Source: Cyanophora paradoxa CCMP329
Taxonomy: Eukaryota; Plantae; Glaucophyta
Length of the DNA stretch: 64,000 bases
Assembly: GCA_004431415.1 (NCBI GenBank)
Contig: QPMI01000039.1
Location: 124,001 to 188,000, forward strand
Direction: 5' to 3'
Shown here: piece after piece, positions 1 to 62,599 of the stretch
Position numbering within the stretch: the first letter of the stretch is position 1
Layout: every line of letters begins with the position of its first letter
Translations under genes and position numbers: made by a program
The notes under the pieces: generated by a model
Told to the model about the DNA's origin: nothing
Databases searched by the model: none
What the model saw: only the letters and a program-made list of their open reading frames with translations

Positions 1-83
1 CCTTGAAGCTAGCTTTAGTTAGGAATTTAGATTCGGTGATAGTAGTTTATGTTTGTGTTTCCGATCTATCAACAAAAATTTCG
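1..83 (+). repeat. Left terminal inverted repeat (visible part)
   Basis: CCTTGAAGCTAGCTTTAGTTAGG...AACAAAAATTTCG is the exact reverse complement of 21044-21126. Confidence 0.95.
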
Positions 84-178
84 ATATCAACAAAAGTAGC
101 AATGAAGTCTTCCTTTACCTTTTCATCATCACTTAAAGATTTCTCGATTTCTAATTAGAAAAGAGAAACCGCGCGCAG

Positions 179-481
179 ATGGCAACTGAAGTGATTACGA
201 TTCCAGCAGTGAACAGGCTTCGTCAAATAGAATATATAACGATCGATGCTAGCAAAGCTGATCTCTTCAGGAGTTTCAATTGGAAAATCAGTGAAATGGG
301 AAGGGCCTATGGCACTAAAAAGGGTTATCGTGGTAGAGTAGCAGCAACGCATTTGACTCTAGGAGTTGTTGGGAAGGGAGCACTCGGGAACTATGAAATT
401 GATATCATAAATGGTAACAAATTGGACATGCGTGCAGAAAATTTGAGAAAGATCTGGAGAAGCAACCCCATGTATTATTAG
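179..481 (+). CDS. Degenerate HNH-like protein (no AP2 domain; catalytic motif altered)
   Basis: IDIINGNKLDMRAENLR aligns with IDHINRNTLDNRRENLR of the two HNH-AP2 ORFs, but with H->I and N->M. Confidence 0.65.
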   Translation: MATEVITIPAVNRLRQIEYITIDASKADLFRSFNWKISEMGRAYGTKKGYRGRVAATHLTLGVVGKGALGNYEIDIINGNKLDMRAENLRKIWRSNPMYY

Positions 482-995
482 TTGAACAAAAATTTCGGTG
501 ATAACAAAAGAAGCAACACGTTGTGTTCAACATCAAAGTACTAGCTAGCAAGCTTTTACGGACACCTTTTATTTAAAATAAATGAGTTCTGGAACCTTCT
601 GTACTGAGTTGGCCAATCAGAATTTAGATGATCAAAAAACCGGTTCGGTCACAAAAAGGGCTTGGAGCCGTCTTTTTTTTTCGACTTCGAACCGGCAGCC
701 GGAGCCATCGAGCTCTTTAAAAAAATAAGGTCGATAGCTGGACTTTGCGAAACGTCAAGACACTTTGTGTCCAACCAATCACAATCCGAGTTCCGTGCAA
801 ATGCAAAGGATTATCGTGCTGCGATTGGCTGGAAGTCGACACCATGTCCAACGATCCCTTGATTTTGCGACAGCTAGAAATCGAGCGCGCCCGAGAGTTA
901 TCTAACTCGATCCATTCCAAGCCCAAGCCACAGTGTGGGCTAGCCGTAGCCGCTGGTGCGTATTTATTTACACCACTTAAAGAAATCGCATATAT

Positions 996-3900
996 ATGAT
1001 GCATCGCGCGGTTTATTGCGCAAAAAATCAGAAAATTCTTTCTGAACATAACTTAACCGAACACAAGATGGATCGTCGTTTTGAAATTGCCAGATTTAAA
1101 GAACAAATCGCATCTAAGGCCGAAACACTTTATGCTAGGGGTTATATTCATAAAGCATTTAGTAAATCTCTGATTAATTTGACAAATCGAAATACTCGCT
1201 TGGAAACATTGCAGAAGAATGCTTCACTATTGGATGAACTATCAAACCTCCCCAGACCTGCAAAGAGAGTATCTTCAAAGACACTGGAGGTTTCGATTGC
1301 AGCAGCCCAGGCCGATCTTGTGGCCAGTTTTAGTGAGCTGCCAGAGGCAGGTGCAACACAGGACACTTCGAGAGCAGTAACTGAGCAGGATGGCTCTGTG
1401 ACAACAGCACTCAATGGAACTTTAGCTGAGGGCACCTATCGCCTTTCCAGGGGTTCAGGAAGGGTGACAGCCATTCAGGCTCACTATGATAACAATCAGC
1501 ATTTTCGAGAGTGGATTACTGTGCCTATCAGTGGAGAGAGGGAAAGGGCTAATGCAGCTCGAATGGGGATAGCATTGAAGATATATGGGAATGGACTGTT
1601 TAGAAAAGTAGATTCAGATGCAGCACAATCTAGGATGATTGAGCTGCACCAGTATATCAGAATCGAGGCAGGGGCTGATTTGACCGAGATTATTAGAAAA
1701 CAACTAATAGATCTTGATGTCAAAGCTGCTGAAGCCACAACAGATTCCTGGTATTTCGATTCCTGGATCTATATTCAGTGGCAGACAATTCGCTACTTCA
1801 GGAGAATGGGAGGCCGTGGGTTGAGATTTAAACTACCAGAATGGCTGAGAGAAAAGCAAGCATTAATTAACATAGATGCACCAAGTAATAAATGCTTTCT
1901 ATATTCAGTTATAGCAGCCAAGCACTCTCTAGAGTCAGGACAAGACCCTCGAAGTGCCTGCCACTACAGGCCTTTTGAGGGGGAATTTGATTGTAAGATG
2001 TTAACATATCCAACCCCACTTGACTCCAAAATGTTCTCAAAGTTCGAGGAGGCAAACAACTTGAAGCTGTGCATTTACACAGTGGCTGTGGATGAGCAGG
2101 ACATCATCCCAATCCACATCAGTGCAGGTACTGATGCTATTCCAATCCTGTATGTCCCTCCTGTTGAAGGAACCAGCCCGGTTGGTCACTATCTGTGGAT
2201 TAAAAGTGTTTCGAGGCTGTTCAACAAACATGGCCAGCATTCCCTACACTACTGTTTGGCTTGTCAGAGGGGTTTTGTTACCCAGGAAGTTTTGAAAAAA
2301 CATATTGACACAGACAGGTGTTTAGAAAGGAAGGAGCATGGAAGGGACAAACTACCCAAAAAAGGGGATCACATTATAAAATTCAAGCGATGGGAAACAA
2401 CAATTCAACAAAGGCTAGCCATGTATGCAGACTGTGAAACACTATGCACTCAAATTGCAGAGATAAACCGAACAGATTCAAAGACTAAACAAACAGGTGT
2501 CCACCAAATTGCTTCTATAGGGGCAGTTGCTGTATCCACTAGTGGAGAGACAGAGTGGTTTACTAAAATGGGTGGACCTGAGGATGATTCCGCGGATGCC
2601 TTTGTTAGATGGTTGGATGCAAAGGAGCCCGAGTTCATTAAAAAGCTGAGTGAGAAAAAAGGAATGAATGCACTAACAGATCAGCAGAAAGAAGCCCACT
2701 ATTCAGCTATGGCATGCTATATGTGTGGCTATGTATTTGAATTTCTGAATGAAAAGGTAATGGACCACTGTCATGATACAGGAAACTACCTTGGTCCAGC
2801 ATGCAAATCCTGCAACAAAATCAGGTCGAAGCCAAAGTCAATCTCAATCTGGTTTCACAATGGCAGGGGTTTTGACTTTCACCTGCTAGTGCGTGCATTA
2901 TCAGCAGGGTATAATCGCAGGATGGTAGCGCACAGGGCCTTTAAACAAGAGATTGAGAGAAAGGTTGAAGAGAAAAGGCCAAGAATAATCAGAAACATCG
3001 AGGCTTGCAAGGCGCGAATAATGCATAAAAATAAATGGAGTGAGCAGGAGTTTGAGCAGCAGAAGGAGAAACTTATTAAGGAGAAACTGAAACAAGCTTT
3101 TGATGCGCTCGAGGAACAGTTCAGACCAGCAGACCTGCTTTCGATTAAATTCGACCAGGTTTTCCAGAACTCTGAGAAAATCTCCCAATTTGTGTATGGT
3201 ATCTATATATTTCGCGATTCCTGCCAGCATTTGCTAGGAAGCATTGATGAGCTTTCGAAAGCTTTACCAGATGATCTGAAGAAAATAACTCAAGCTTTGC
3301 ACCCTGATGAGGCTAAATTTCAGCTGATGACCAAGAAGGGGACTTACCCCTATCAGTATATGACATCATGGGAGAGAATGTTGGAGACTCAGCTACCAGG
3401 TCGTCGTCAGTTTTATAATGAGCTCAAGCAAGAGAAATGCTCTAAAGAGGACTATGCTCATGCCCACAATGTTTGGAGGGAGATGGGATGCAGTACACTG
3501 GCTGATTACACTATGGCATATATGAAGACAGACATCTCACTGCTGGCAGATGTGTTTGAGAATTACAGGAAGAAGTGTCTTGAGAAGTATAAAATAGATC
3601 CCAGCCACTATATGAGCAGCCCCGGGTTTGCCTGGCAGGCAGCTCTGAAACATACAGGTCAGGCGTTGGAGGTATTCTATGATGGCCAGCAGGATATGCA
3701 CTCTTTCATTGAGAATGGAATCCGCGGGGGTATCTCTATGATTTCTAAAAGGTATGCTAAAGCAAACAACAAATGGGTTGACAAGTATGTGGTTGGTCAC
3801 AAACAAAAGCAAGGCTGGCTACTTTACCTTGATGCCAACAATTTGTATGGCCTTGCAATGAAGCAGAAGCTTCCAACTGGAAGATTCAAATGGGAGGACC

Positions 3901-5141
3901 TGGAGGGTATTACAGACCTGAAGCAGTACATCACAGACTTAGATGCAGAGGGAAGCAGAGGCTATGCCTTGGAGGTTGACATGCACTGCCCAGAGGAACT
4001 GCATGATTATTTCAGTGATTATCCTCTAGCCCCAGAGCGCATGTGTGTTTTGAAAGAGCATCTATCAAAAGCTCAGAGCGATATGATTGAAGCAGAGAAG
4101 CTCAGCTCGATAGAGAGAACTGAAAAGTTGGTACCAAATCTGCTTCCAAAAGAAAAGTATGCAGTTGATGTGAGGGCACTGCAGTTTTACATTTCACAAG
4201 GAATGGTGGTAACTAAAATTCATAGGGTACTCTCCTATGATCAGTCAGCCTGGCTTGCCCCATTCATTGATTTCAACACACAAGAGAGGCAGAAAACACC
4301 ATTCAAACATGAGCAAGATTTGTATAAACTGATGAACAACTCAGTGTATGGCAAAACCATGGAGAATGTGAGGAATCACTGCAACTCAGAGTTGGTGACT
4401 GATGGTGAAAGATTGGCCAAAATAAACACTGAACCTAACAGGTTAAAACAGGTTGTTGTTTATGATGAAAACTTAGTTTATGTTTCAAAACGAAAAAGTG
4501 AGTTTAATCTCAACAAACCCATTTACTGCGGCTTCTCGATTTTGGATGTATCAAAGATTCACATGTACAGGTTCTACTATGAAGTACTTAAACCGCTGTG
4601 GGGGCAGCGAGTTAGGCTTCTGGGTACTGACACAGATAGTTTGATGTTGGAGATTGAAACAGAGAACATGTATGTTGATTTGAGAAACATCAAACAATAT
4701 CTTGATGTTGGAGATTATCCTGACAACCATCAGTTCTTCGAGGGGATGACTACTGATGAGATTAAACATCTAAAGAGCCTAGCTAAAACACCAGGGCTTT
4801 TCAAGGATGAGTTAAAGGGCATTCAGATGATTGAGTGGATTGCTAATCGACCTAAATCATACCACTGGACCTCAGAAGATAAAGAGAAGACAGTGTGCAA
4901 GGGTGTTAAAAAAGCGTTCAATAAGGAGCTTACCAGAGACAGATACTATGACTGCATTTTCGGAGGGAAGGCCTGTAATATTGAGGGCATTGTTGGATTT
5001 AAATCGAACAAACATCACATTTATGTTCAAAAATCAACTAAACAAGCCCTGCACCCCTTGGATACAAAGAGGTACCTTTGTGATGATCAGTTCACCACCA
5101 GAGCGATTGGACATTACTTAAACAAAAATCTCGCTGATTGA
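996..5141 (+). CDS. polB: Protein-primed family B DNA polymerase (start may be the in-frame ATG at 1068)
   Basis: Exonuclease motifs YADCE, HNGRGFD, YMKTD; polymerase motifs YLDANNLYG, KLMNNSVYGK, GTDTDS; KGTYPY; embedded EndoVII-like CYMC...DHCHDTGNYLGPACKSCN; N-terminal NKCF...GHY (vOTU-like) and Zn finger CLAC...H. Confidence 0.97.
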   Translation: MMHRAVYCAKNQKILSEHNLTEHKMDRRFEIARFKEQIASKAETLYARGYIHKAFSKSLINLTNRNTRLETLQKNASLLDELSNLPRPAKRVSSKTLEVSIAAAQADLVASFSELPEAGATQDTSRAVTEQDGSVTTALNGTLAEGTYRLSRGSGRVTAIQAHYDNNQHFREWITVPISGERERANAARMGIALKIYGNGLFRKVDSDAAQSRMIELHQYIRIEAGADLTEIIRKQLIDLDVKAAEATTDSWYFDSWIYIQWQTIRYFRRMGGRGLRFKLPEWLREKQALINIDAPSNKCFLYSVIAAKHSLESGQDPRSACHYRPFEGEFDCKMLTYPTPLDSKMFSKFEEANNLKLCIYTVAVDEQDIIPIHISAGTDAIPILYVPPVEGTSPVGHYLWIKSVSRLFNKHGQHSLHYCLACQRGFVTQEVLKKHIDTDRCLERKEHGRDKLPKKGDHIIKFKRWETTIQQRLAMYADCETLCTQIAEINRTDSKTKQTGVHQIASIGAVAVSTSGETEWFTKMGGPEDDSADAFVRWLDAKEPEFIKKLSEKKGMNALTDQQKEAHYSAMACYMCGYVFEFLNEKVMDHCHDTGNYLGPACKSCNKIRSKPKSISIWFHNGRGFDFHLLVRALSAGYNRRMVAHRAFKQEIERKVEEKRPRIIRNIEACKARIMHKNKWSEQEFEQQKEKLIKEKLKQAFDALEEQFRPADLLSIKFDQVFQNSEKISQFVYGIYIFRDSCQHLLGSIDELSKALPDDLKKITQALHPDEAKFQLMTKKGTYPYQYMTSWERMLETQLPGRRQFYNELKQEKCSKEDYAHAHNVWREMGCSTLADYTMAYMKTDISLLADVFENYRKKCLEKYKIDPSHYMSSPGFAWQAALKHTGQALEVFYDGQQDMHSFIENGIRGGISMISKRYAKANNKWVDKYVVGHKQKQGWLLYLDANNLYGLAMKQKLPTGRFKWEDLEGITDLKQYITDLDAEGSRGYALEVDMHCPEELHDYFSDYPLAPERMCVLKEHLSKAQSDMIEAEKLSSIERTEKLVPNLLPKEKYAVDVRALQFYISQGMVVTKIHRVLSYDQSAWLAPFIDFNTQERQKTPFKHEQDLYKLMNNSVYGKTMENVRNHCNSELVTDGERLAKINTEPNRLKQVVVYDENLVYVSKRKSEFNLNKPIYCGFSILDVSKIHMYRFYYEVLKPLWGQRVRLLGTDTDSLMLEIETENMYVDLRNIKQYLDVGDYPDNHQFFEGMTTDEIKHLKSLAKTPGLFKDELKGIQMIEWIANRPKSYHWTSEDKEKTVCKGVKKAFNKELTRDRYYDCIFGGKACNIEGIVGFKSNKHHIYVQKSTKQALHPLDTKRYLCDDQFTTRAIGHYLNKNLAD

Positions 5142-5800
5142 TATTGTCAGATTCACAAGTTTTATTACTTAAAGACAAAGCTTATATGAAAAGAAAGAAG
5201 AAATGGCATCAATTGAGATACCTGTTATTCCTGAGGGAGCAGTCCTAATTCCAATTACAGGTAAGCAAAATGGAAGGTATGGTGTTGTTGTCGCCTATTC
5301 TCTAGTATCACAAGAAGATGCTGCTAAGGTTCTTGAGAAACGGTGGTACAAGAGTAAGGAAGGCTATGCACGAGCCTGGTGTAATGGGAAATTGATGTTT
5401 ATGCACAACTTCATCAGTGGACACCTCGAAAATGGTCTTACCATAGATCACATTAACAGGAATACTTTGGATAACAGACGTGAAAATCTTCGACTAGCAA
5501 CAAAACGTCAACAAATTATGAATCAGAATAGAAGAATATCAAATTCAAGCGGTTATATTGGTGTTTCTTTCCATAAACTATCCAGTAAATGGCATGCTCA
5601 ATGTATGATCAATGGATCTAAAAAACACATTGGTCTATTTGAAACAGCAGAAACAGCAGCAAAAGCCAGGGATACATATTTGGTTCAGCATACCTCAGAG
5701 GATGACAAACCGTTCCTCAGATTAAACTTCCCAATTGTTTCAGTGGAACCTCAAAATGTTTAGATAGAGTTGTTAGCTATTACTTAAACAAAAATCTCGC
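5113..5800 (+). repeat. 22-bp perfect direct repeat ATTACTTAAACAAAAATCTCGC (5113-5134 and 5779-5800) flanking the HNH-AP2 gene
   Basis: Read directly from the sequence. Confidence 0.9.
5203..5763 (+). CDS. HNH-AP2 homing-endonuclease-like protein 1
   Basis: IDHINRNTLDNRRENLR (HNH_3) followed by SSGYIGVSFH...W.AQ...KKHIGLFETAETAAKARD (AP2). Confidence 0.92.
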   Translation: MASIEIPVIPEGAVLIPITGKQNGRYGVVVAYSLVSQEDAAKVLEKRWYKSKEGYARAWCNGKLMFMHNFISGHLENGLTIDHINRNTLDNRRENLRLATKRQQIMNQNRRISNSSGYIGVSFHKLSSKWHAQCMINGSKKHIGLFETAETAAKARDTYLVQHTSEDDKPFLRLNFPIVSVEPQNV

Positions 5801-5809
5801 CAATAAACA

Positions 5810-6745
5810 ATGGCCCCGAGATTCATAATAACTGCTCAACCAGGGGCATATCAAGTCGACATACTATTCATTGGGAAATTTCGTTTATTTGCAGCCGTGG
5901 AAATAGCAAGCAGATTTGCAATTGTTAAAAAAATGGAAGACGCAAAGCAAATCCCTGTGTTTATATCCAAGCTTCCAGGCATTTGGGGTTTTTCAGGAGA
6001 CAATGGATTTAATACAGCAGCAATAAGAGCAATGGCAGAAGAGAAAAAGCTAAAAATGCACACTGACGTTGCAAAGGATGATCACATTTCGAAGGGTGAT
6101 AGGCTAGGAATTATCGATCGATTTGCAAGGACATTGCGGGCGATTATAGAGAAAGACTCAGAGTCCAGAGGCTCCCCGCACTTCCTTTCAAGGCTGCCAA
6201 CCCTGGTCAGAGCTTATAATGAAACAAAGCACTCAGCCTTTGGAGGGGAGTACTCTCCAGCATGGATGCACAGCCATAGGCAGGTTGCAACACAGCTGCA
6301 TTTAGTGAGGCAGAGGCAAAACGATATTGAGAGGGATGCAATGAATGTACCAAAACCAGGCACAGAAGTTCAAATATTGGAACCCAAGCCAAACATATTT
6401 GCAAAGGGAACAACAAAACAAAGCAAGGAAACCTATGTTGTTGTAGGTCAGGAAGGCAACCGCATTAGAGTGGCAACAAAAGACGGGACTGTTTTAAGTC
6501 GCAGAGTCAAACCATCCGAGATTAAAACACCTAAACAGCTGCCAGATCAAACAAAAATAATCAAAGCAAAAGCAAAGGCCAGGCAAGAAACTCAATTACG
6601 TAGAGAGGGCTTGATCGATTCCAAAAAGTTTAGTTCTCAGACCAAACAGGCCCGAGAACTTAAGAGATTGGAAATTGCAGGAGAGTCAGCTCTGCGTGCT
6701 GGTGCGAGAGTTGATCGCGGCTACAGCAGCTTGAAGAGCAAGTAA
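5810..6745 (+). CDS. Retroviral-like (rve) integrase
   Basis: YQVDILF...AVEIASRFA, SGDNG, GIIDRFARTLR, YNETKHSA...SP; C-terminal SH3-like segment (PGTEVQIL...FAKG). Confidence 0.85.
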   Translation: MAPRFIITAQPGAYQVDILFIGKFRLFAAVEIASRFAIVKKMEDAKQIPVFISKLPGIWGFSGDNGFNTAAIRAMAEEKKLKMHTDVAKDDHISKGDRLGIIDRFARTLRAIIEKDSESRGSPHFLSRLPTLVRAYNETKHSAFGGEYSPAWMHSHRQVATQLHLVRQRQNDIERDAMNVPKPGTEVQILEPKPNIFAKGTTKQSKETYVVVGQEGNRIRVATKDGTVLSRRVKPSEIKTPKQLPDQTKIIKAKAKARQETQLRREGLIDSKKFSSQTKQARELKRLEIAGESALRAGARVDRGYSSLKSK

Positions 6746-7021
6746 CCTTTGTTTACACCTCAACCTATAGGCGCGATCTAATTCCCTTTTACGCTCAATA
6801 TGTGCAAGCCTGTATTCGTTTGAACAGGCGATTTGTCTCCTTCGATATTCCTCATTGTTATGGTAACGAATTTTTTGTTGTTCAGCACGTTTTTTGCGTC
6901 TAGCTTCTACAATTTCTGGAGTAACTTCAATTTGTGGGCGCCCACGCTTGGGTTTAATGACAGAGTCGCTATCAGTAAAGTGCACCATAAGCTCTTCGTT
7001 GTTCATATAGATGATCGACAT
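6686..7021 (-). CDS. Small basic DNA-binding protein (AT-hook plus basic helix); likely start at 7006
   Basis: KPKRGRP AT-hook-like motif, then an R/K/E-rich helix; ACTTAAAGA motif just upstream. Confidence 0.55.
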   Translation of the reverse strand: MSIIYMNNEELMVHFTDSDSVIKPKRGRPQIEVTPEIVEARRKKRAEQQKIRYHNNEEYRRRQIACSNEYRLAHIERKRELDRAYRLRCKQRLLALQAAVAAINSRTSTQS

Positions 7022-7102
7022 ATCTTTAAGTGATAGAAACTTTTTGCAACTTTTAGCGCGTTATATTTCGAAAAAATAAAACCCGCGATTTATATAAATA
7101 AA

Positions 7103-7465
7103 ATGGTCGCAGACAAGCAGCGACGCTGCGCCAGCGGAACACAAATGCAAAACGAACCTCAAGCGAAACTCGCAACGATTAGAATAGGGAAGTATCGAGG
7201 GTTGACTCACCTGGAGGTAGCTTTCTGTGATCCTAATTATGCTCGGTGGCTGATGAACTGGAGCAAGCTCCGGGAAACGGACCGAGACCATTTTCAACAG
7301 GCTTTTAGGTTAATCAGTGAATCAAAACCAGAAATTCTATGGAGAGTGTATCAAAATGAAAAGCAAGCCAGGACTGCCCAGCAGCGTTCAGAGAGGCCGC
7401 AGGCAACTGTTGAGCCAACTGACCTTGATCTGGACTTATCAGAGGTGGATGCGCCGGGCTTTTGA
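7103..7465 (+). CDS. Small protein with a GKY(K/R)G...Y..WL (DUF3820/exonuclease X C-terminal-like) motif
   Basis: IRIGKYRGLTHLEVAFCDPNYARWL. Confidence 0.6.
   Translation: MVADKQRRCASGTQMQNEPQAKLATIRIGKYRGLTHLEVAFCDPNYARWLMNWSKLRETDRDHFQQAFRLISESKPEILWRVYQNEKQARTAQQRSERPQATVEPTDLDLDLSEVDAPGF
7106..7134 (+). repeat. Dispersed hairpin repeat, copy 1 (GTCGCAGACAAGCAGC-GAC-GCTGCGCCAG)
   Basis: Further copies at 7509-7537, 11908-11936 and 14762-14788. Confidence 0.9.
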
Positions 7466-7508
7466 ACTCTGAACTAGGCTTAAAGAGATCGCAATCTCAG
7501 ATTGTAAA

Positions 7509-7537
7509 GTCGCAGACAAGCAGCTCGGCTGCGCCAG
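7509..7537 (+). repeat. Dispersed hairpin repeat, copy 2 (loop TCG), abutting the ATG of HNH-AP2 gene 2
   Basis: GTCGCAGACAAGCAGC-TCG-GCTGCGCCAG followed immediately by ATG. Confidence 0.9.
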
Positions 7538-8098
7538 ATGGAGGTCACAATTCCAGAAGGCGCTGTTGCTATCCCGCTTGGTGGTATCCGGAATCATCGT
7601 CGAGTAATTGTTGCCTACGCACTAGTTAGTCAGGATGATGCTGAGCGCGTGCTTGGATTTCGCTGGCGTTTAGATAAAGGATATGCTCGCGCTACTATAA
7701 ATGGAAAGACCGTGTATTTGCATAACTACATTAGTGGTGATCTCGAGAACGGGTTAACCGTTGATCATATAAATCTGAACAAGCTTGACAATCGTCGCGA
7801 GAATCTACGTTTGGCAACGAAGCGACAGCAGAATTTGAACCAAAACCGGCGGGTCACAAACACATCAGGTTTTATTGGTGTTAATTTCCATCAGCAGCAT
7901 GGTACATGGCGGGCACGTTACAGGATCAATGGCCGTCAAAAGCACATTGGTTACTTTGCAACCGCAGAAGAAGCTGCTCGTGCCCGTGATGCCTACGCTC
8001 TAGAACATACCAGTGAAGATGATAAGCCGTTCTTGCGGCTGAATTTTACAAACGAATCCTCCGTCCACCCATCGCATTCTTCATCTGTGAGCTCGTAG
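7538..8098 (+). CDS. HNH-AP2 homing-endonuclease-like protein 2 (paralogue of 5203-5763)
   Basis: VDHINLNKLDNRRENLRLATKRQQ; SGFIGV...KHIGYFATAEEAARARD; shares HTSEDDKPFLRLNF with paralogue 1. Confidence 0.92.
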   Translation: MEVTIPEGAVAIPLGGIRNHRRVIVAYALVSQDDAERVLGFRWRLDKGYARATINGKTVYLHNYISGDLENGLTVDHINLNKLDNRRENLRLATKRQQNLNQNRRVTNTSGFIGVNFHQQHGTWRARYRINGRQKHIGYFATAEEAARARDAYALEHTSEDDKPFLRLNFTNESSVHPSHSSSVSS

Positions 8099-8678
8099 AA
8101 TTTGGTTCAGAGACATAAGGTGATGCAGTTTTAACCTCGGCAGAATCAAGCGATTGCTCTGCCTTTATTTTTTCATTTTTCAAATAGCGTAAATCTGGTA
8201 CGTCCATAGGTCTGTGCTTAAACATCTCGCTTCGCAACATATCGCGGATCTTTGCTCTCTCTTGCTTGTCTTTTACATACGATTCGATATTAGCTGATCG
8301 AGCCTCGAGATCTCGCAATTTAGCTGTTAGTTCCTCGATCTGACTCTTTGATACTGTTGGTTGTTTAATCTTCGGGCCAGAGTACCGCGATTCGCTAGCC
8401 ATTGCTTGTATAATTCTAGCAGCATCATTGTCGATATCGGACTGCATTTCAGTAACAGTTTTAGCCTGTGCGTGACGGTCATCAATCGCACTGGCATTAG
8501 CAGTTGCCGAGGCGATCATTTTAGCAACGGGTGCATTAAGACGTGGGTCACTAGCTAGTTCACCGCTAGGAGCAGCAACAGCTGCGCCCTCTGTCGCACC
8601 ACTTTCGATGAGAGGGGCGTTTGGCTCTGGGAGCACCCTTCGTTCACGAAAACCCTTTCTTGGAATCCCACGGGGCAT
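8046..8678 (-). CDS. Hypothetical viral protein, basic N-terminus and coiled coil
   Basis: 210-aa ORF co-oriented directly downstream of the ATPase; no recognised motif. Confidence 0.6.
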   Translation of the reverse strand: MPRGIPRKGFRERRVLPEPNAPLIESGATEGAAVAAPSGELASDPRLNAPVAKMIASATANASAIDDRHAQAKTVTEMQSDIDNDAARIIQAMASESRYSGPKIKQPTVSKSQIEELTAKLRDLEARSANIESYVKDKQERAKIRDMLRSEMFKHRPMDVPDLRYLKNEKIKAEQSLDSAEVKTASPYVSEPNSTSSQMKNAMGGRRIRL

Positions 8679-8687
8679 CTTCTGTTC

Positions 8688-9437
8688 TTAAGCTAAGATT
8701 TTAAAACGCTTCTTTTTAGAGACAACAGGCGAAGACTCTTCTTTTTTAGACTCTTCTTCTTGTCTTAGCCACTTTGTAAAGCGAAAACTCTTATCTTCAA
8801 TCGCTTTATCAATATACCAGGCAGTATCATACTTCGTTCCATCAAGGACTAGACACTGATAATCGTGAGCCCAAGTTTCGAACAAGGCTAAGAACTCATC
8901 CTTTGGGAGATGACTGAACTCTCTATAAATTGCCTCAAGTTCGGTGTGATTTGAATAACTAAAGAAAAAGCAGTAATCGCTGTTTGATCTTATCGATTGA
9001 CTTAATGCTGTTAGCTTTTGCGTCATAAGAATCGTACTGATATTAAAATGGCGCCCCTGCGTAAAAAGTCGATTTACAGCTTTGCTGTTTCGCAGATCCA
9101 CGGTTTCAGAGGCGGCGACAAGATCATCCAAGACAAGCAATATCTGCGGCGCTTTCTTTTTGTTTTCGATCAACTTGCGCTGTGAATCAATGATCTCTGC
9201 AACAATGGAGGGCTGAAAGTCGTCGTAAAGCTCTTTAGTTATTGATGAATACTCTCCATTGAATTTTGTGGCCGTAAACACGACGACTCGGTTAATCTTT
9301 GGATACAGCAGCCGCAGCAGATGCTTGGTGCAATAGAAAGACTTGCCGCTATTAGACTTCGAAATAAACAGGGCCTTAAATGGGACCCTCATTTCTTCTG
9401 GCTGGAACTTTGCGAGTTCTTGAGACTCATCCATCAA
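8688..9437 (-). CDS. A32-like (FtsK-HerA) genome packaging ATPase
   Basis: Walker A SKSNSGKS, Walker B LLVLDD, LFTQGRHFNISTILMTQ, IRSNSDY. Confidence 0.95.
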   Translation of the reverse strand: MMDESQELAKFQPEEMRVPFKALFISKSNSGKSFYCTKHLLRLLYPKINRVVVFTATKFNGEYSSITKELYDDFQPSIVAEIIDSQRKLIENKKKAPQILLVLDDLVAASETVDLRNSKAVNRLFTQGRHFNISTILMTQKLTALSQSIRSNSDYCFFFSYSNHTELEAIYREFSHLPKDEFLALFETWAHDYQCLVLDGTKYDTAWYIDKAIEDKSFRFTKWLRQEEESKKEESSPVVSKKKRFKILA

Positions 9438-9485
9438 AAAATTAAGTACTGATATTCGCAGGCGAACACAACCGCGACACTTCGA

Positions 9486-18924: not shown

Positions 18925-19770
18925 ATGGGTGAATATAATCGAGTTCAACTTCCAATATATTCCCTTGGATCCCCTGCTATGCACTTTCGCCAGCATGAAG
19001 TAAATGATGAGGTTCGTGGATTAGAATCCACAGAGAGACCCAATTCCAATGGTAACTCCTTTGATAAGAATTCGATTATTCGAGTTAAAGAACTTCGAGC
19101 CGACAAAAACTCAGGTGTGGTTAAAACAACTCGACTTCTTGTGACTAATGCCAACTTCTTTCAACCTACCAATGGAGGCCCTGATGCTTACAGTGTAAAT
19201 CTGAAAGCTCTTGATTTCGATAAAAACACTGCTGCTGCTACAATTCGTTCAGGCGGTGCTTTTATTGGTGGAGGTTGCCGTGTATCCGGTCAACTCTCTT
19301 CATCTGTTTCGTTTAATGATGTCCCTGATACTCTCGATCAAAATGTAGAGAATCCACAGCGTATTAGATTATATACACCTGTTGCACAGCAACCATTTGT
19401 TCAATTTTACGTAGGTTATACAGTTACACTTGCAACCTCTGAACTAATTGAAGGAACCAAAAGAGTAATGAGAGGTCTCGCCATTCCAAACGCCATGCTC
19501 TCTTTATGTAGAGCCAACAACAACCAGCCAGGTCACAGGTACTATTTCAGTGTGCAGGGATATGATCATTTCGGCACAGGCTTCTGTGTTTATAACAATA
19601 ATTTCACTTACGATTTGTTTGTTACAGACATTGGCAAATATACTATAACAATTATCGGTTTGAGAACAGATATAGCAGCTGTTTCAGTTCTCAGAGGTGT
19701 TACTCCTGATACTCTTTCAGTATCAGGGTTTTACCAGGAACCAGATGTGATCGATGACCCCACTCCCTAA
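18925..19770 (+). CDS. Putative spike protein, paralogue 2
   Basis: IIRVKELRADKNSGVVKTTRLLVTNANF...SGGAFIGGGCRVSG shared with paralogues 1 and 3; C-terminus unrelated to C1q. Confidence 0.7.
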   Translation: MGEYNRVQLPIYSLGSPAMHFRQHEVNDEVRGLESTERPNSNGNSFDKNSIIRVKELRADKNSGVVKTTRLLVTNANFFQPTNGGPDAYSVNLKALDFDKNTAAATIRSGGAFIGGGCRVSGQLSSSVSFNDVPDTLDQNVENPQRIRLYTPVAQQPFVQFYVGYTVTLATSELIEGTKRVMRGLAIPNAMLSLCRANNNQPGHRYYFSVQGYDHFGTGFCVYNNNFTYDLFVTDIGKYTITIIGLRTDIAAVSVLRGVTPDTLSVSGFYQEPDVIDDPTP

Positions 19771-19794
19771 AATATATATATATGTTTAATATAA

Positions 19795-20627
19795 ATGGCT
19801 GAACCACCTCCAATTGAGCGTATTGTTACAGCACAGCTTTCATTAGCTGCACCAGCTAACCACGTTCTGCAGCATGCTACTTTCGATGATGTAGAAGGTC
19901 TGCAATCAACAGAGGTTCAACCTACGATGAACACCTTCGGTTCCACCCATAAACTGAGATTGCAGGAACTCAGGTGCGATAAAAATAATGGTATAGTTAA
20001 GACCACGAAATTACTTGTAACTAATGCGAATTTTAGTGCCCATTATGGTGATCCAGACAGTTATGGCGCCCCTCTTTCGACTTATTCTTTCGAGTCTAGG
20101 TCAGGAGCTATTAACTGCAAGACGGGGGAGCATATATTGGTGATGGTTTGCGGGTTGGTGGAGCTGTTGGTGCTCCTCTCTTTGTTAATGATCAACCAAA
20201 CCCTATTGATCCTAACACGAGAATTCGAACCTATTTGCCAAGTATGAATGCACCATATATTATAAAGATCTTCCCAATCGTTGTTAATGAGCAGACATCA
20301 GTAGTTGATTCTCTTGTGGAAATTGGTGACCACTACAAGGTGGTTGTTGATATCCCTCCAGACGTCTACGCTGTTTGTCAAGTAGAGGGTGGAACCCCAA
20401 ACATTGCTGTGGTGATTACTCCATATGATAATTTCGGGATCGCTTATCATGGTGTAAATTTCGGCCTTGAAGACTACCAGTTCTTGGTGAGAGCTACAAA
20501 ATTCGGTATTTATAAATGCATTCTCTATGCAGAAAGAACCGATGCTATCGCAAGGCAGAATACCTATGCGGAGTACTACGGCACTAATAGGTACTTCCCC
20601 ATTTTCGGACAGGATACTGCCCCGTAG
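19795..20627 (+). CDS. Putative spike protein, paralogue 3, split by a 1-nt frameshift at the G5 run 20124-20128
   Basis: LRLQELRCDKNNGIVKTTKLLVTNANF; adding one G restores TGGAYIGDGLRVGG and joins ORFs 19795-20247 and 20148-20627. Confidence 0.75.
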
Positions 20628-20662
20628 AGAATATCCCTAATTATTTGCCGAGGCCTCTGATA

Positions 20663-20908
20663 ATGGCCTCATGTCTTGCAGGGCTGTTTGAGTTGCTACA
20701 TCATTTCCATGCACACTCCCGCTTGCAATCCCAGTGCTGCACAGCGGATCTTGACCTTTCCTTTGGTGGTGATCATGACAGCAACAGCGCCAACCGTGAA
20801 GCTGAACGCGAAGCTCTTCAGCACGCAGAAGATCTAGCACCGCCCGGTGCGCACTACCAGAGGCCCCGGACTCCGTCAATAACGTACCATCTATATCAGG
20901 ATGCTTGA
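20663..20908 (+). CDS. Small hypothetical viral protein with an H.RLQSQCC motif
   Basis: Last ORF before the right TIR; hydrophobic start followed by a di-cysteine motif. Confidence 0.4.
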   Translation: MASCLAGLFELLHHFHAHSRLQSQCCTADLDLSFGGDHDSNSANREAEREALQHAEDLAPPGAHYQRPRTPSITYHLYQDA

Positions 20909-21043
20909 AGGCTCGCTGAGGCGGCCTGGACATCCTTTTTGTTTGCTTTTGAAAAATAAACAGCTAGCCGTTTTGAACAGTCCAGCTGCTGCAGCTCGGA
21001 TAGATCGGAAACACAAACACAAACTACTATCATCGAATCTCGC

Positions 21044-21126
21044 CGAAATTTTTGTTGATAGATCGGAAACACAAACATAAACTACTATCACCGAATCTAA
21101 ATTCCTAACTAAAGCTAGCTTCAAGG
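21044..21126 (-). repeat. Right terminal inverted repeat (part matching the window start)
   Basis: Exact reverse complement of 1-83; preceded by an imperfect tandem copy of its inner unit (20999-21040 vs 21057-21098). Confidence 0.95.
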
Positions 21127-21530
21127 AACATCTAAAGCACACACTAAATAATCACATAGGAGATAGCTGGTAGACCGGCGCATGGGGGGCCGCCTCTCTC
21201 TTCCTGATTTTTCAATAGAAAACTCTCCAAAGTACTCCTATAATACTCCCTCAAAGGGAACAGGGCCGGTGTTGACCCTAGGGTCTAGGGTAGACGTAGA
21301 TCCAGAGAGCTCAAATGAGGGGGCTGGGGACGTAGCTAGGGTGTGTGGGAGGGGCGGGGATCTGGAGAGAGGGTGGGGGTCGGGGGCTGGGCCCACCGCG
21401 GCAACGCAATTTACATTTTTTAACCTGCAGCTGCATTCGAATTCGATTGCACAGCGCATCAAGTGCATCATGATCAGGTGCGCCTCAGGCCTTGCCCAAG
21501 CTGGTTAATCATCAACTATATCCGCTGCGC

Positions 21531-23613
<2,083 letters not shown>

Positions 23614-41282: not shown

Positions 41283-41449
41283 CGGTGCGCTATCGATCGT
41301 CCTGCGCGCCGAGGCTGGCAGATCCGCTCCAAGAATCACAGATAGATCTGCAAGCTACAGCTGATCTACTGGTCCCAATCCAGCACAAAGAACGTTAGGC
41401 ACTCACTGAAGCCACCGGAGACGGCCAGATCGAGAGGCGCTGCGCCTCA

Positions 41450-41973
41450 GCCGCGCGGGAGGAAAGGGGCCGCGGGGGGGTTCGAAGACAAAAAGGGCGC
41501 CCGGCCGGGGTGGACCCCCGTCGCGGACGTGGCAAACCGTGAAGGGTGAGATTCGAACTCACGCGGGCAGAGCCCACTTGCTGGCAGCCTCGGAAGAGAT
41601 AGCAGGCAAGCGCCTTAACCACTCGGCCACCTCCACTTGCGAGCATGGGTCTCCGCAAGCGTGCTGTACGGCTGCCGGACGCTTTTTTTCTCGCCGAACT
41701 CAATCGCCACCAGCTCGATGAGCGCCCGCCTGCGCGCTGCGCGCCGCGGCCTGCGCCCGCTCTCGCGCTTGCTTGAAACAGCGCTTCTCAACTTTTCCGC
41801 ACGCGCGGATCGGCCCCAGCAGCCGCACGCTCTCGCGCGCGTGCCAAGTTTTCTCGAAAGCGTGCCAGGGGTTCAACGGTTTTGACTGCCTCTGTTTCCC
41901 GGCTCGAGTTGGCCGCAGCAGGTGACCGGTACCAGAACCGCTGCTTACGCACTTGTAGACGCTAGTTAGGGTT
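41450..41973 (-). repeat. Inverted repeat arm L (524 bp)
   Basis: Reverse complement of 44675-45190; differences seen are an 8-bp indel (TTCAACGG) and one substitution. Confidence 0.95.
41538..41636 (-). tRNA. trnS: tRNA-Ser(GCT) with 17-nt intron
   Basis: Exact reverse complement of 45004-45102. Confidence 0.93.
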
Positions 41974-44674: not shown

Positions 44675-45190
44675 AACCCTAACTAGTGTCTACAAGTGCG
44701 TAAGCAGCGGTTCTGGTACCGGTCACCTGCTGCGGCCAACTCGAGCCGGGAAACAGAGGCAGTCAAAACCCCTGGCACGCTTTCGAGAAAACTTGGCACG
44801 CGCGCGAGAGCGTGCGGCTGCTGGGGCCGATCCGCGCGTGCGGAAAAGTTGAGAAGCGCTGTTTCAAGCAAGCGCGAGAGCGGGCGCAGGCCGCGGCGCG
44901 CAGCGCGCAGGCGGGCGCTCATCGAGCTGGTGGCGATTGAGTTCGGCGAGAAAAAAAGCGTCCGGCAGCCGTACAGCACGCTTGCGGAGACCCATGCTCG
45001 CAAGTGGAGGTGGCCGAGTGGTTAAGGCGCTTGCCTGCTATCTCTTCCGAGGCTGCCAGCAAGTGGGCTCTGCCCGCGTGAGTTCGAATCTCACCCTTCA
45101 CGGTTTGCCACGTCCGCGACGGGGGTCCACCCCGGCCGGGCGCCCTTTTTGTCTTCGAACCCCCCCGCGGCCCCTTTCCTCCCGCGCGGC
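44675..45190 (+). repeat. Inverted repeat arm R (516 bp)
   Basis: Reverse complement of 41450-41973. Confidence 0.95.
45004..45102 (+). tRNA. trnS: tRNA-Ser(GCT) with 17-nt intron (45041-45057)
   Basis: Acceptor GTGGAGG/CCTTCAC, A-box TGGCCGAGTGG, anticodon stem CTTGC/GCAAG with GCT at 45037-45039, long variable arm GGGC/GCCC, T-arm GTGAGTTCGAATCTCAC. Confidence 0.93.
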
Positions 45191-45588
45191 ACAGGAGCGT
45201 CCCCGGCCGGCGCCTCGCGTCGTGCCTCGCTCGCCCGCACCCTGGACACGCCCGGGCGCGCCCGGCCGCCGCCGAACTCGCCGCCTCCACCCAGCGTTCT
45301 CGGGCGCGCCAGGTCCGCCCAGCGTTCTCGGCGCAGCGCGCGCCATCGGCGGCGTCATCCGGCACCTCGCTCGCATTGATTCAAGCAGCAGCAGCTTGCA
45401 TTTCGGCCCGTTCCTTGTGATCGTGGCAGACGAGCGGCAGCGCGCTCTGGCCGGATTTGCGCGCGACTCGGAGCCCTGTTCTCGCAGGAGCGCCACGGCA
45501 ACAGGCATTTAGAGCGGCGTGAGCTGCATCCGTAGCCTCAAGTTCGAGCTCGGCAGCCCGCGGGGGCAGCGGCTTCCCGCAGCTTGCG

Positions 45589-55489: not shown

Positions 55490-57303
55490 ATGGCGGCTGC
55501 GGTCTTTCCGGCGCAGGGCACGTCGTCCCCGGTCCTCTTCGGCGACGGCTTCAGCAGCACGGACTTCAAGCTCATCGAGCTGCCGCCGGACGTGCTCGGA
55601 GAGCTCAGGGACGGCATGTGCGCTCCGCGAGCGCTCTCACGGCTCGCCCGCTCACCGCCGCCGCGCAGCGTGAGCATCCGCGGGTCCGAGGACGAGGAGG
55701 CGGTCCTCTGCACGAGCGCCCGCACCTTCCAGCTGCGGCTCGTCGAGTCTTCCAACACCACGCTGCTCTTCCGGCCGCGTGGCGAGTCGGACGATGCGGT
55801 GAGCGCGCCTCGCCGGCCGCCGGCCGCCGGTTGCCGCGGCTTAGCTGCGGCAGGAGAAGAAGGGCGCGGAGGTGACGAGCGCGGTCACGGGCCACCTGGA
55901 GATAGTGGAGATCGCGCCGCGGACGGAGAAGCTGCGGCGGCTGCTGCTGGAGCGGCCGTACGCCGGCCCGGAGCCCGACGCGGTGCGGCGGCTGGACGAC
56001 GGCGCGCTGGACGAGGCCGGTGCGTGCGCGGCGCGCGCCTTGGGCCGGCTCCGAGCGGCCGACGGGCGGCCGCGTGCAGCCGAGGAACCGGCGGAGGCGG
56101 ACGGGGCGGAGGGCGCGGGGGAGGGGCGGCGGGTGCGGAGGCGGACGGGCGAGGGGCGGCCGCAGCGGCGCGGGCTGTACACGTTCGCGGAGCTGCGCGG
56201 GCACGTGCAGGCGAGCGACGAGCAGCTGCGGGCGGCGCTGCGCGAGCTGCACGCGTTCGAAGTGGACGGTGCGGCCCCCGGCGAGCCCCCGCCCCGCCCT
56301 CCGCGTCCCCAGCGTCCCAGCGGCGGCAGGGTACTGGCGCGTGCTGGACCCGAACGCGCTGCGGGAGGCGATGGACCTGCTGCTCCTCACGGCTGTCGAG
56401 CGGGCGCGCCGGGGGCCCGCCTGCGGTCGCGCGCGTGCGGCGGGGGCGCTGAGGGCGGGGGCAGGACTGGCGGCTGGACGAGCTGAGCCTGCGGGAGGCG
56501 CTGGAGGCGCTGGCCTCGGACGTGGACGCGCTCGTCCTCGAGCACACCGTCCGCTCCCACGCGGCGCCCGTCGAGGCGCCCGCCGCCGGGTCCGCCCCGC
56601 CCCGCCCCGCCCCGCCCGCGCGGGCCCGGGCCGGGGCGACGGGCGGGGCCAGGGAGCGGGCGGGGACCTCTTCCGCGTGGACCTGGACCGCGTGTGCGTC
56701 TTCCGCGCCCGCCAGCTCCTCGCCGCCGGCCCCGTGCGCCCCGCCCCGCCCCGCCCCGCCCCGCCCTCGCCCTGCGCCGCGTGAGGGGGCGGCAGCGGAT
56801 GCGACTGGACGACTTCGTGGAGGCGTGGCGCGGCTGCGTGCCCGAGGGCGCCCGCCCGACCTCGCCCTCCTGCGGGCCCGCCCCGCCCCGCCCCGCCGGC
56901 CGCGCCGCCGGGGCTGAGGGGCGGCAGGGGCTGGCGATCACGGAGGGCGCCGGGGCGGATGCCTTCGTGCTCCACTACCCCGCCTCGGCCCTCCCCCTCG
57001 ACCCGCCCCAGGCCCGCCCCGCCCCGCGCCCCGCGCCCGCGCTGGGCGGGCGGGGGCGAGCGGGGGCGCAGCGGTTCGCGGCGCTCTTCCGGCAGCGGGC
57101 GCGCTGGGCGCTGGCGGACCTGGAGCCCTACGTGAGGCGCGCGGGGCGGGGCGGGGCGGGGCGCGGGGCCGGGGGCTGAGGGGGCGGGCAGGGGGCTGGT
57201 GCAGCCGGGGCAGACGCTGGAGCAGCTGCTGCTGAAGCACACGCGCGCGAGCCGCGACCTCGCGCAGCGCGGCGCCCCCATCTACTACACCGCCCGCGAC
57301 TAG
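55490..57303 (+). CDS. DCC1: Sister chromatid cohesion protein Dcc1, copy 1, multi-exon
   Basis: FKLIELP...IRGSEDEEAVLCTSARTFQLRLVESSNT.LL, VQASDEQL, RFAALF.QRARWALADLEPY. Confidence 0.88.
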
Positions 57304-58028
57304 CCGCCCTCCCTTGCAGGCAGCTTTTGGATGCAGCGCCTTCTAAGCATGTAGTCTGCTCTTTCCGCCCGCGACTAGCCACCCTCCCTCGCCGGCTCGA
57401 TCCGCTGAGCGTGAGCTCGATAGCGTGAGCTCGCGGGAGCTTTTTTTTGGGGGGGGGAGGGGGGGGGGATGGGCCGGGGGCCCGGCGGGGGTTCTTGTAT
57501 GGGGTGGGTATCAGGGGAATCTTCTTGAGCACATAGTCGACTGGACAGGCTAACTAAATCTTTGATAGGTCTTGCCTGGTTGTTTAATTAAGGCCCGTGC
57601 TATGGGGGCTGCTGAGGAGAGTGGAAAGAAAAGGCTGCAGTGAGCCGAAAGGTGACAGGAGCTCGAAAAATGAAAGAGGGAGTCGCGGGGGCTGCTAACC
57701 CGGCCGCGTCTGCCTGGCGGGCGGCCAGGAGGGCGGCGAACTTGGCCGCAGCCGCGGCGTTGGCCACGTCTTCGGCGTCGTTGGGCGGGGTGGGGGCGGG
57801 CCGGGGGTCTCCACCCCCGCCTCCTTCGCGGACTCCGCCGCCGCCGCAGCGGCCGCGCGCTTGCGGGCGCCCGCAGCTTGCGCCGCGATGGTCACCGAGT
57901 CTTGAGGGCAGCGTCGAGGGGCTCGAAGGCGAGCACCATGGAGATTTCGAGCATGTGGCGGGCCTTGGTGGAGTAGCCCGTGGACTTGGAGACGCGGCCG
58001 CCGATGCCGTAATGAACTACTATCTATG

Positions 58029-62445: not shown

Positions 62446-62599
62446 GCTAGCCGCCTTCCCTCGCCGGCGGCTTCTTGACGTAGCGCCTTCTATGCATGTG
62501 GCCAGCTCGAGCTCCATGTGTCCCCTCTTTTCTAGTGCTGCTGAATGACTGGCGGCGCTACGCTTTAATTTGTTGACTCTTCTACGACATGTTCACATA

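What the first reader, a model, noticed from the sequence alone, without database searches (positions are those of the whole stretch)
1..21126. Near-intact endogenous Polinton-like virus with an unusual gene set in an algal (probably glaucophyte) genome
Seen: identical TIR halves, about 20 intron-less ORFs with only one visible frameshift, and an abrupt compositional break to GC-rich host DNA. Known: pPolB, rve integrase, A32 ATPase, MCP and penton define Polintons/PLVs. Unusual combination: two pentons, patatin, three HNH genes, a multi-gene fibre cassette, and no recognisable adenain-type maturation protease. Inference: a recently integrated, possibly reactivatable virus of a distinct lineage.
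Basis: partly seen in the sequence, partly recalled or inferred. Interest (0 to 1): 0.85.

Follow-up and report, generated by a model that had tools for sequence, protein, structure and literature searches.

The report
Intact alga-embedded Polinton-like virus, catalogued family
This is a nearly undamaged 21-kb DNA virus genome lying next to host-type DNA of what is likely the alga Cyanophora, probably one of about ten near-identical copies; it belongs to a large virus family already counted in that alga, so it is mostly ordinary, although its repeated DNA signals hint that it may wake up with help from a giant virus.

Summary
The element is real: 20 intron-less genes, 44% GC against 68% in the flank, and identical inverted ends. 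The right repeat runs past the stated end, to at least 21349, and the true terminus is unresolved. The single frameshift is probably an assembly error or private to this copy. Contig depth suggests roughly 8-13 near-identical copies. The capsid protein is 63% identical to a Cyanophora paradoxa capsid published by Bellas 2023, which counts 366 such genes. A 2025 table of 156 complete glaucophyte PLVs lists 0 with a protease, 89 with a lipase, 85 with rve and 40 with HNH_3. Two pentons have precedent in Trimcap B. The 'unusual gene set' is therefore largely the family norm. Not found in the papers read: three adhesin paralogues with a shared N-terminal domain; a phage-type C1q gene pair; HNH genes between direct repeats; a motif upstream of 6 of 8 replication-side genes and 0 of 12 structural-side genes; a 29-bp motif present four times. 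The best reading is a recently amplified, probably silenced provirus, more likely than not helper-dependent. No listed contig bridges the junction, and reactivation is untested.

The parts
1..83 (.). Left terminal inverted repeat, cut by the window edge (at least 223 bp more expected to the left)
   Evidence: 100% complementary to 21044-21126; length inferred from the right end
179..481 (+). Short degenerate HNH gene (motif His and Asn lost), between 32-bp 84% direct repeats at 71-102 and 485-516
   Evidence: HNH_3 E 2e-4, below cut-off; alignment; repeats
996..5141 (+). [quoted passage not shown]
   Evidence: motif positions (motif names recalled; vOTU architecture from PMC11161782); Endonuclease_7 E 1.8e-6; no Pfam PolB hit at E<=10
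5113..5134 (+). 22-bp exact direct repeat, first copy (last codons of pPolB); second copy 5779-5800 is the integrase upstream motif; together they flank HNH-AP2 gene 1
5203..5763 (+). HNH-AP2 endonuclease 1, probably a later insertion
   Evidence: HNH_3 E 1e-10; PHROG 99 E 1e-38
5810..6745 (+). rve-type integrase, triad D17-D64-D103 (Asp at the usual Glu position), no N-terminal zinc domain
   Evidence: 35 of 39 PDB hits at E<=10 are retroviral integrases, best E 0.04; positions
6686..7021 (-). 111-aa basic protein, probably DNA-binding
   Evidence: sequence only; no Pfam or PHROG hit
7103..7465 (+). 120-aa protein with a weak ExoX-like_C match
   Evidence: E 0.0024, below cut-off
7106..7134 (+). 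29-bp motif with a palindromic core; further copies at 7509-7537, 11908-11936 and 14762-14790, in different frames and outside a gene
   Evidence: 4 matches, 0 expected in 100 shuffles; no conserved RNA fold
7538..8098 (+). HNH-AP2 endonuclease 2, 66% identical to endonuclease 1
8046..8678 (-). 210-aa coiled-coil-like protein with no cysteine, so not a cysteine protease
8688..9434 (-). A32-type genome packaging ATPase
   Evidence: Pox_A32 E 8.6e-10, above cut-off
9486..10874 (-). Major capsid protein, predicted double jelly-roll
   Evidence: 63% identical to P0001, listed in PMC10120064 Table S2 with HHpred 98.47% to iridovirus MCP; ESM Atlas 0.97-0.98 to Capsid_N/Capsid_NCLDV clusters
10921..11877 (-). 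Penton-like protein 1 (weaker evidence; start at 11877 chosen to avoid overlap with the next gene)
   Evidence: DUF5901 E 0.11, only Pfam hit; hand-picked core aligns to penton 2, z 4.2, 3 of 500 shuffles
11905..12822 (+). Penton-like protein 2
   Evidence: ESM Atlas 0.97-0.98 to DUF5901 and Sputnik V18/19 clusters, recognition below the tool's mark
12814..13080 (-). 88-aa ORF of unknown function
   Evidence: no family hit
13083..14297 (-). Patatin-like phospholipase with GGGxRG, GxSxG and DGA motifs intact
   Evidence: Patatin E 1.5e-25; motifs
14322..17531 (+). 1069-aa fibre with phage tail-fibre repeats
   Evidence: PHROG tail-fibre hits; 309 phage records match, best 15 over residues 792-968; tandem repeats
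17552..18508 (+). Adhesin paralogue 1: shared N-terminal domain plus C1q head
   Evidence: C1q E 6e-10; N-terminal 35-42% identity to paralogues
18530..18793 (+). 87-aa phage-type protein; follows a C1q-domain gene in both phages where it was found
   Evidence: 45-49% identity to proteins of phages DC33 and S-SRM01; upstream genes carry C1q
18925..19770 (+). Adhesin paralogue 2 (281 aa): shared N-terminal domain, head of no known family
19795..20627 (+). Adhesin paralogue 3 (277 aa when read through); frameshift in the window at the G run near 20123
   Evidence: 34% identity over 246 aa to paralogue 2; contigs of 4 of 4 runs differ from the window by one gap here
20663..20908 (+). 81-aa ORF, doubtful
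   Evidence: no family hit
21044..21349 (.). Right terminal inverted repeat, at least 306 bp; true end further right and unresolved
21455..23115 (+). Host flank: multi-copy host gene with short GT-AG introns and right-handed beta-helix exons; the element possibly sits in or just before one of its introns
   Evidence: Beta_helix E 6e-8; three-frame translation and donor scan; paralogous contigs

Best explanation
This is a near-intact Polinton-like virus genome, likely integrated recently in the nuclear DNA of what is probably the glaucophyte Cyanophora, likely kept silent by host methylation and predicted to form particles when a co-infecting giant virus supplies transcription. Shown: inverted ends, 20 open genes, intact catalytic motifs, kinship with the published Cyanophora capsid cluster. 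Inferred cycle: genes carrying the CTTAAA[GC]A motif (polymerase, integrase, HNH genes) are expressed first. The polymerase copies the linear genome from its ends by protein priming, and its vOTU domain would cut off the terminal protein. Structural genes, many with TATA 1-17 nt before the start codon, follow. The ATPase fills a double jelly-roll capsid that needs no maturation protease. Two penton-like proteins, one long fibre and three adhesins with a common base and different heads would bind the cell, and packaged patatin would breach a membrane. The integrase puts new copies into the chromosome. The HNH-AP2 genes are probably selfish insertions.
For: Identity. Recent amplification: TIR 83 of 83 identical. 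Contigs identical to the window lie at 8-13x and the TIR contig at 4.8-5.5x the median host-side contig depth in 4 of 4 runs dated 2012, 2019 and 2024; this is a rough figure, since the tool warns that depth is no copy number. 20 of 24 listed runs hold at least half the words, from 17 named studies under one species label; one may be the window's source. Silencing: C. paradoxa methylates repeats and virus-derived genes and holds giant-virus insertions (PMC12344493 passages). Helper dependence: none of the 20 genes hits a transcription enzyme. TATA ends 1-17 nt before the ATG in 7 of 12 structural-side genes, too near for a Pol II TATA box and like the late TATA initiator with short 5' UTRs of one giant virus (PMC7163114 passages). 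Lipase and fibre are in Gezel-14T virions, and that PLV depends on a giant virus (10.1101/2022.07.28.501842 passages).
Against: No listed contig piece bridges the virus-host junction, though the table was cut (32 shown, 1689 not shown), and no target-site duplication could be read. The TATA signal does not separate gene classes significantly (TATAA 7 of 12 against 1 of 8, Fisher p 0.07). Both promoter motifs were chosen after looking, and intergenic DNA is AT-rich. The mimivirus-type AAAATTGA used by Gezel-14T occurs only twice, both inside genes. My two structure models failed (pLDDT 37), so the jelly-roll folds are not shown by structure here. The integrase has Asp for Glu and no zinc domain. 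Autonomous nuclear PLVs exist (TsV). Methylation of this copy was not examined.
Confidence: 0.6

Rival explanations
1. Same provirus, but autonomous: after induction it is transcribed by host RNA polymerase II in the nucleus, like Tetraselmis virus TsV-N1, and needs no giant virus.
For: Own polymerase and full capsid module; TsV is described as a nuclear lytic virus; the mimivirus early motif is absent from upstream regions; the TATA contrast is not significant.
Against: TATA lies too close to the start codons for a Pol II TATA box; PLVs tested in Phaeocystis and Tetraselmis were helper-triggered.
Confidence: 0.22
2. It now spreads only inside the genome as a self-copying transposon, or has just died; the capsid genes are intact simply because the insertion is young.
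For: Hundreds of related copies in one genome (366 MCP genes, about 7% of the genome, PMC10120064 Table S4); no close relative found in virome or metagenome collections.
Against: Capsid paralogues 63% identical are both full-length and open, which points to selection on protein function over long times. The cassette holds phage-type attachment genes of no use to a transposon. Those collection scans find only close relatives.
Confidence: 0.12
3. The virus-host join is an assembly chimera, and the virus is a free linear episome or belongs to a co-cultured organism.
For: No bridging contig among the listed pieces; left flank outside the window.
Against: Virus and flank are both covered, 30 of 30 bins, in 4 of 4 runs from three years, with a near-constant TIR-to-host depth ratio. 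The family is described as integrated, with 156 TIR-bounded copies.
Confidence: 0.06

Closest known systems
Endogenous PLVs of Cyanophora paradoxa (PMC10120064 Tables S2 and S4, MCP clusters 21 and 29 by my column count; PMC12220804 Table S6)
   Same: MCP 63% identical over its full length to a listed seed; pPolB, rve, A32, mCP, lipase and HNH_3 all tabulated in the group; protease in 0 of 156.
   Different: Those tables give presence or absence only. Two pentons, the adhesin paralogues, the C1q pair and the DNA motifs are not described in the passages I read. I did not test whether this very copy is among the 156.
Monoraphidium neglectum integrated PLV (PMC4642659)
   Same: pPolB plus rve integrase with a PLV-type capsid module and no maturation protease.
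   Different: Its MCP is PgVV-like; no sequence comparison was made here.
Gezel-14T / PgVV (10.1101/2022.07.28.501842)
   Same: Linear genome of about 20 kb with TIRs, MCP, mCP, A32, lipase and phage-like fibre; two promoter types.
   Different: Uses TVpol and a tyrosine recombinase and the AAAATTGA motif; shown to be helper-dependent, which is only inferred here.
Maverick-Polintons (Polintoviricetes, group 1)
   Same: pPolB with vOTU, rve integrase, A32, MCP, mCP, TIRs.
   Different: No Ulp1/adenain protease; MCP not shown to fall in a Mavpol cluster; large fibre cassette.
Trimcap B PLVs (10.64898/2026.06.19.733378)
   Same: Several members have two mCP genes.
   Different: Three MCP genes; here only one.

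Membership tests
Polinton-like viruses (Yutin 2015 definition) | Double jelly-roll MCP | tested here: met
   63% identity to a protein with published HHpred 98.47% to iridovirus MCP; ESM 0.98. Own model failed; its Foldseek ranking favours adintovirus and NCLDV capsids but TM-scores are about 0.2.
Polinton-like viruses (Yutin 2015 definition) | Minor capsid protein (penton) | tested here: met
   11905-12822: ESM 0.97-0.98 to DUF5901 and Sputnik V18/19 clusters; a lead-grade test, recognition 2025 is below 2300.
   DUF5901 E 0.11; core alignment z 4.2 on hand-picked segments, full-length z 0.4; BLASTP E 0.035 out of register; model failed.
Polinton-like viruses (Yutin 2015 definition) | A32 packaging ATPase | tested here: met
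   Pox_A32 38.9 bits, cut-off 22.8.
Polinton-like viruses (Yutin 2015 definition) | 15-30 kb with TIRs, no maturation protease | tested here: met
   At least 21.3 kb; TIR; no protease family hit in 21 proteins; six-frame motif scan empty and the only free ORF of that size has no Cys.
Maverick-Polintons (Polintoviricetes) | pPolB with TP-vOTU-exonuclease-palm | tested here: met
   Motifs including vOTU Cys300/His398 present; the terminal-protein domain itself was not tested; no Pfam PolB hit.
Maverick-Polintons (Polintoviricetes) | rve integrase | tested here: met
   Aligns with retroviral integrase cores, best E 0.04; triad D-D-D.
Maverick-Polintons (Polintoviricetes) | Ulp1/adenain maturation protease | tested here: not met
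Maverick-Polintons (Polintoviricetes) | 5-6 bp target-site duplication | not testable with these tools
   Left flank outside the window and no genome held.
Cyanophora PLV MCP clusters of Bellas 2023 | At least 25% identity over 30% of the length to a cluster member | tested here: met
   63% over 100% to the seed in Table S2 row 106; which of the two clusters was not determined.
Virophages (Virophaviricetes) | Virophage-type MCP and maturation protease | tested here: not met
   MCP resembles NCLDV/PLV capsids; no protease.
Virophage lifestyle | Replication only with a giant virus | not testable with these tools
   Only indirect promoter evidence.
Aquintoviricetes or NCLDV-like PLV groups | Placement in MCP or A32 trees | not tested
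   Too few relatives recovered for a tree.

The most novel reading that the evidence does not exclude
An intact, recently amplified latent virophage of an unnamed capsid lineage in a cultured glaucophyte. Its two promoter classes would be the fingerprint of a still unisolated glaucophyte giant virus, and its vertices would carry two pentons displaying interchangeable adhesins built on one shared docking domain with phage-type heads. A glaucophyte culture would then be an inducible source of the first particles of this lineage.
Probability: 0.25. Interest if true: 0.75.

Novelty: new member of a known kind. Interest (0 to 1): 0.4.

Why it matters
The family is counted in print but, in the papers I read, not dissected. 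An intact copy in an alga that grows axenically makes an open question testable: whether protist PLVs with their own polymerase and integrase are autonomous viruses, helper-dependent virophages or transposons. The upstream motifs give a search key for the helper giant virus, and the adhesin paralogues offer a small model of how PLVs vary their attachment proteins. As a discovery of a new system it ranks modestly, because nearly every listed oddity already appears in published tables.

Tried and rejected
No genome was held, so the left flank, the target-site duplication and a direct copy count were out of reach. The precise right terminus stayed open: one search's tables were cut and no finer view of the junction was obtained. 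No RNA holder listed. AlphaFold2 models of MCP (2 sequences) and penton 1 (single sequence) had pLDDT 37; Foldseek on the penton model gave nothing at E<=0.001. The complex job for the two penton-like proteins gave no answer, score 0.00, folded without alignments. Homolog searches: MCP 1 hit among 7990 candidates scored; penton 2, 0 of 1212; ATPase, 0 of 442. The profile search gave 6 hits, of which P0004 is a repetitive unrelated protein and was left out of alignments. Locus scans of viral contigs and metagenome contigs found no relative; they reach only close relatives. None of 10 element proteins is in the collection by exact sequence. PDB sequence searches for pPolB, MCP and both pentons gave nothing significant. 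The 29-bp motif as a conserved RNA hairpin was rejected: z from -1.9 to +1.1 with different folds. Patatin read-through into the 88-aa ORF was rejected: a 2-nt gap puts them in different frames. Trees were not built for lack of relatives. Earlier scan findings: none returned. bioRxiv supplements were closed; HMM tables there may place this MCP in a named group.
Full report
Observation. The first 21.3 kb of the window hold 20 intron-less genes covering 92% of the sequence at 44% GC, beside 68% GC host-type DNA. Positions 1-83 and 21044-21126 are perfectly complementary. In 4 of 4 sequencing runs laid on 19000-23190, one contig without differences runs from about 21073 to 21349-21351, so the right TIR is at least 306 bp. 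A probable host intron acceptor lies at 21454, which puts the terminus between 21352 and about 21410 by inference. No listed contig piece bridges the junction, but only 32 pieces were shown and 1689 were not; all 30 bins are covered in all 4 runs. The target-site duplication could not be read because no genome is held.

Copy number and age. Contigs identical to the window in the fibre region lie at 8.2-13x the median depth of host-side contigs, and the TIR contig at 4.8-5.5x. One 89%-identical relative lies at about 28x in two runs. The tool warns that depth is no copy number, and the host flank is itself a gene family, so these are rough figures. They fit about ten near-identical copies, of which two or three share this end type. 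The only frameshift lies in a G run at 20123, where the matching contig of each run has one gap and the only listed indel is one more G. It is probably an assembly error or private to this copy. Read through with N at the break, the gene gives 277 aa, 34% identical over 246 aa to its neighbour. Twenty of 24 listed runs hold at least half of the sampled words, all under one species label, from 17 named studies; one may be the window's source.

Core genes. The A32 ATPase, patatin, C1q and two HNH genes pass Pfam cut-offs. The 1381-aa polymerase has no Pfam PolB or PDB hit but carries exonuclease and polymerase motifs, an EndoVII-type insert and a vOTU-like Cys300/His398 pair (motif names recalled; architecture from passages of PMC11161782). 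So the element has a probable protease domain, but not an adenain. No protease family hit was found in 21 proteins, a six-frame motif scan was empty, and the only unassigned ORF of suitable size has no cysteine. The MCP has one close relative, P0001, 63% identical and named by its source as a Cyanophora paradoxa protein; more distant ones are 24-40% identical. The ESM Atlas places it with Capsid_N/Capsid_NCLDV clusters at 0.97-0.98, with recognition below the tool's mark. My model failed. Penton 2 matches DUF5901 and Sputnik V18/19 clusters by features. Penton 1 has only a DUF5901 hit at E 0.11 and a hand-picked core alignment to penton 2 (z 4.2; full length z 0.4), so 'two pentons' is likely, not shown.

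Attachment cassette. The 1069-aa gene carries phage tail-fibre repeats. Three further genes share an N-terminal domain of about 120 aa at 35-42% identity and differ in their heads, one being C1q. The 87-aa gene after the C1q gene is 45-49% identical to proteins of two freshwater phages (3 records), and in both phages it follows a C1q-domain gene. A two-gene module shared with phages is the simplest reading; the direction of transfer was not tested.

DNA signals. CTTAAA[GC]A occurs 8 times in the element; it lies upstream of 6 of 8 replication-side genes and 0 of 12 structural-side genes (Fisher p 0.0007, motif chosen after looking). TATAA lies within 25 nt of the start in 7 of 12 structural-side genes and 1 of 8 others (p 0.07). 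TATA ends 1-17 nt before those starts, closer than a Pol II TATA box allows and like the late initiator of one giant virus (passages of PMC7163114). AAAATTGA, used by Gezel-14T, is not upstream of any gene. A 29-bp motif with a palindromic core occurs four times, in different frames and once outside a gene, against 0 in 100 shuffles. It has no conserved RNA fold, so it is more likely a protein-binding site or a recombination scar. HNH-AP2 gene 1 sits between exact 22-bp direct repeats, the first being the polymerase's last codons and the second the integrase's upstream motif; the degenerate HNH gene sits between 32-bp 84% repeats. Both look like insertions.

Mechanism. See Best explanation. 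Shown are the anatomy, motifs and kinship. Integration is likely (about 0.9). Silencing by CpG methylation is inferred from the host's known behaviour (passages of PMC12344493, which also reports giant-virus insertions in C. paradoxa). Helper dependence is inferred from the lack of transcription genes and the promoter spacing, at a little over even odds.

Comparison with what is known. P0001 appears as an MCP seed in Table S2 of PMC10120064 with HHpred 98.47% to iridovirus MCP (supplement rows). Table S4 counts 366 MCP genes in C. paradoxa in two clusters marked 'new' and without a group name, about 7% of the genome (main-text passages and section 5). Table S6 of PMC12220804 gives 156 complete glaucophyte PLVs: A32 139, lipase 89, rve 85, PF03175 49, HNH_3 40, all nine protease columns 0 (supplement rows). 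Its sections 9 and 13 describe fibres and patatin in these elements. PMC4642659 (passages) states that PLVs lack the protease, often carry lipases, and that the Monoraphidium element joins pPolB and rve. PMC8502044 (section 10) already noted such proteins in Cyanophora contigs. Preprint 10.64898/2026.06.19.733378 (sections 6 and 7) reports two mCP genes in several Trimcap B members. Preprints 10.64898/2026.10.13.758929 and 10.1101/2025.10.09.676808 were seen as passages only. Searches for a description of this family's gene map or of an isolated glaucophyte virus returned no such paper in the listings; subscription journals and bioRxiv supplements were not searchable. It works like a Polinton-type integrating virus, passes the PLV definition, and fails Polinton and virophage membership on the protease.

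Verdict. A real, near-intact, multi-copy provirus; a new member of a known and catalogued kind. Interest 0.4, carried by the intactness, the DNA motifs and the adhesin paralogues and not by the gene list.

Noticed in passing
window 41442-41973 and 44675-45198: Inverted repeat arms of about 530 bp, 99% complementary, 2.7-2.9 kb apart, with a GC dip between them; possibly a young DNA transposon.
   Followed up: no
window 55539-59626 and 60663-63877: A direct duplication about 5.1 kb apart, 94-98% alike, each ending in an array of 138-bp repeats.
   Followed up: no
window 22584-23101 against 59012-59916 and 63263-63998: The host gene beside the virus is 70-82% alike, on the opposite strand, to the 138-bp repeat genes, so a beta-helix gene family is clustered here.
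   Followed up: partly
window 23205-23338: Pure (AT)n run of about 135 bp inside host DNA.
   Followed up: no
window 20999-21040 and 21057-21098: A 42-bp, 95% identical internal repeat at the inner edge of the right TIR; only one copy at the left end.
   Followed up: partly
window 19000-20540: Diverged relatives of the adhesin genes reach far higher summed contig depth than the rest of the stretch, so this cassette is probably shared by many family members; from about 20650 this copy's letters are the minority variant.
   Followed up: partly
window 1-21349: CpG observed/expected is 0.71 in the element against 1.09 in the flank; whether this reflects methylation history was not tested.
   Followed up: no
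P0003, P0005, P0006, P0008: Metagenome proteins 23-25% identical to the MCP, on contigs of 1-12 kb; possible free or other-host relatives whose neighbourhoods could not be fetched.
   Followed up: partly
L001:933-3800 and L002:2614-3767: In phages DC33 and S-SRM01 an unannotated C1q-domain gene is followed by an unannotated small gene; the pair may be a fibre tip and its helper.
   Followed up: partly
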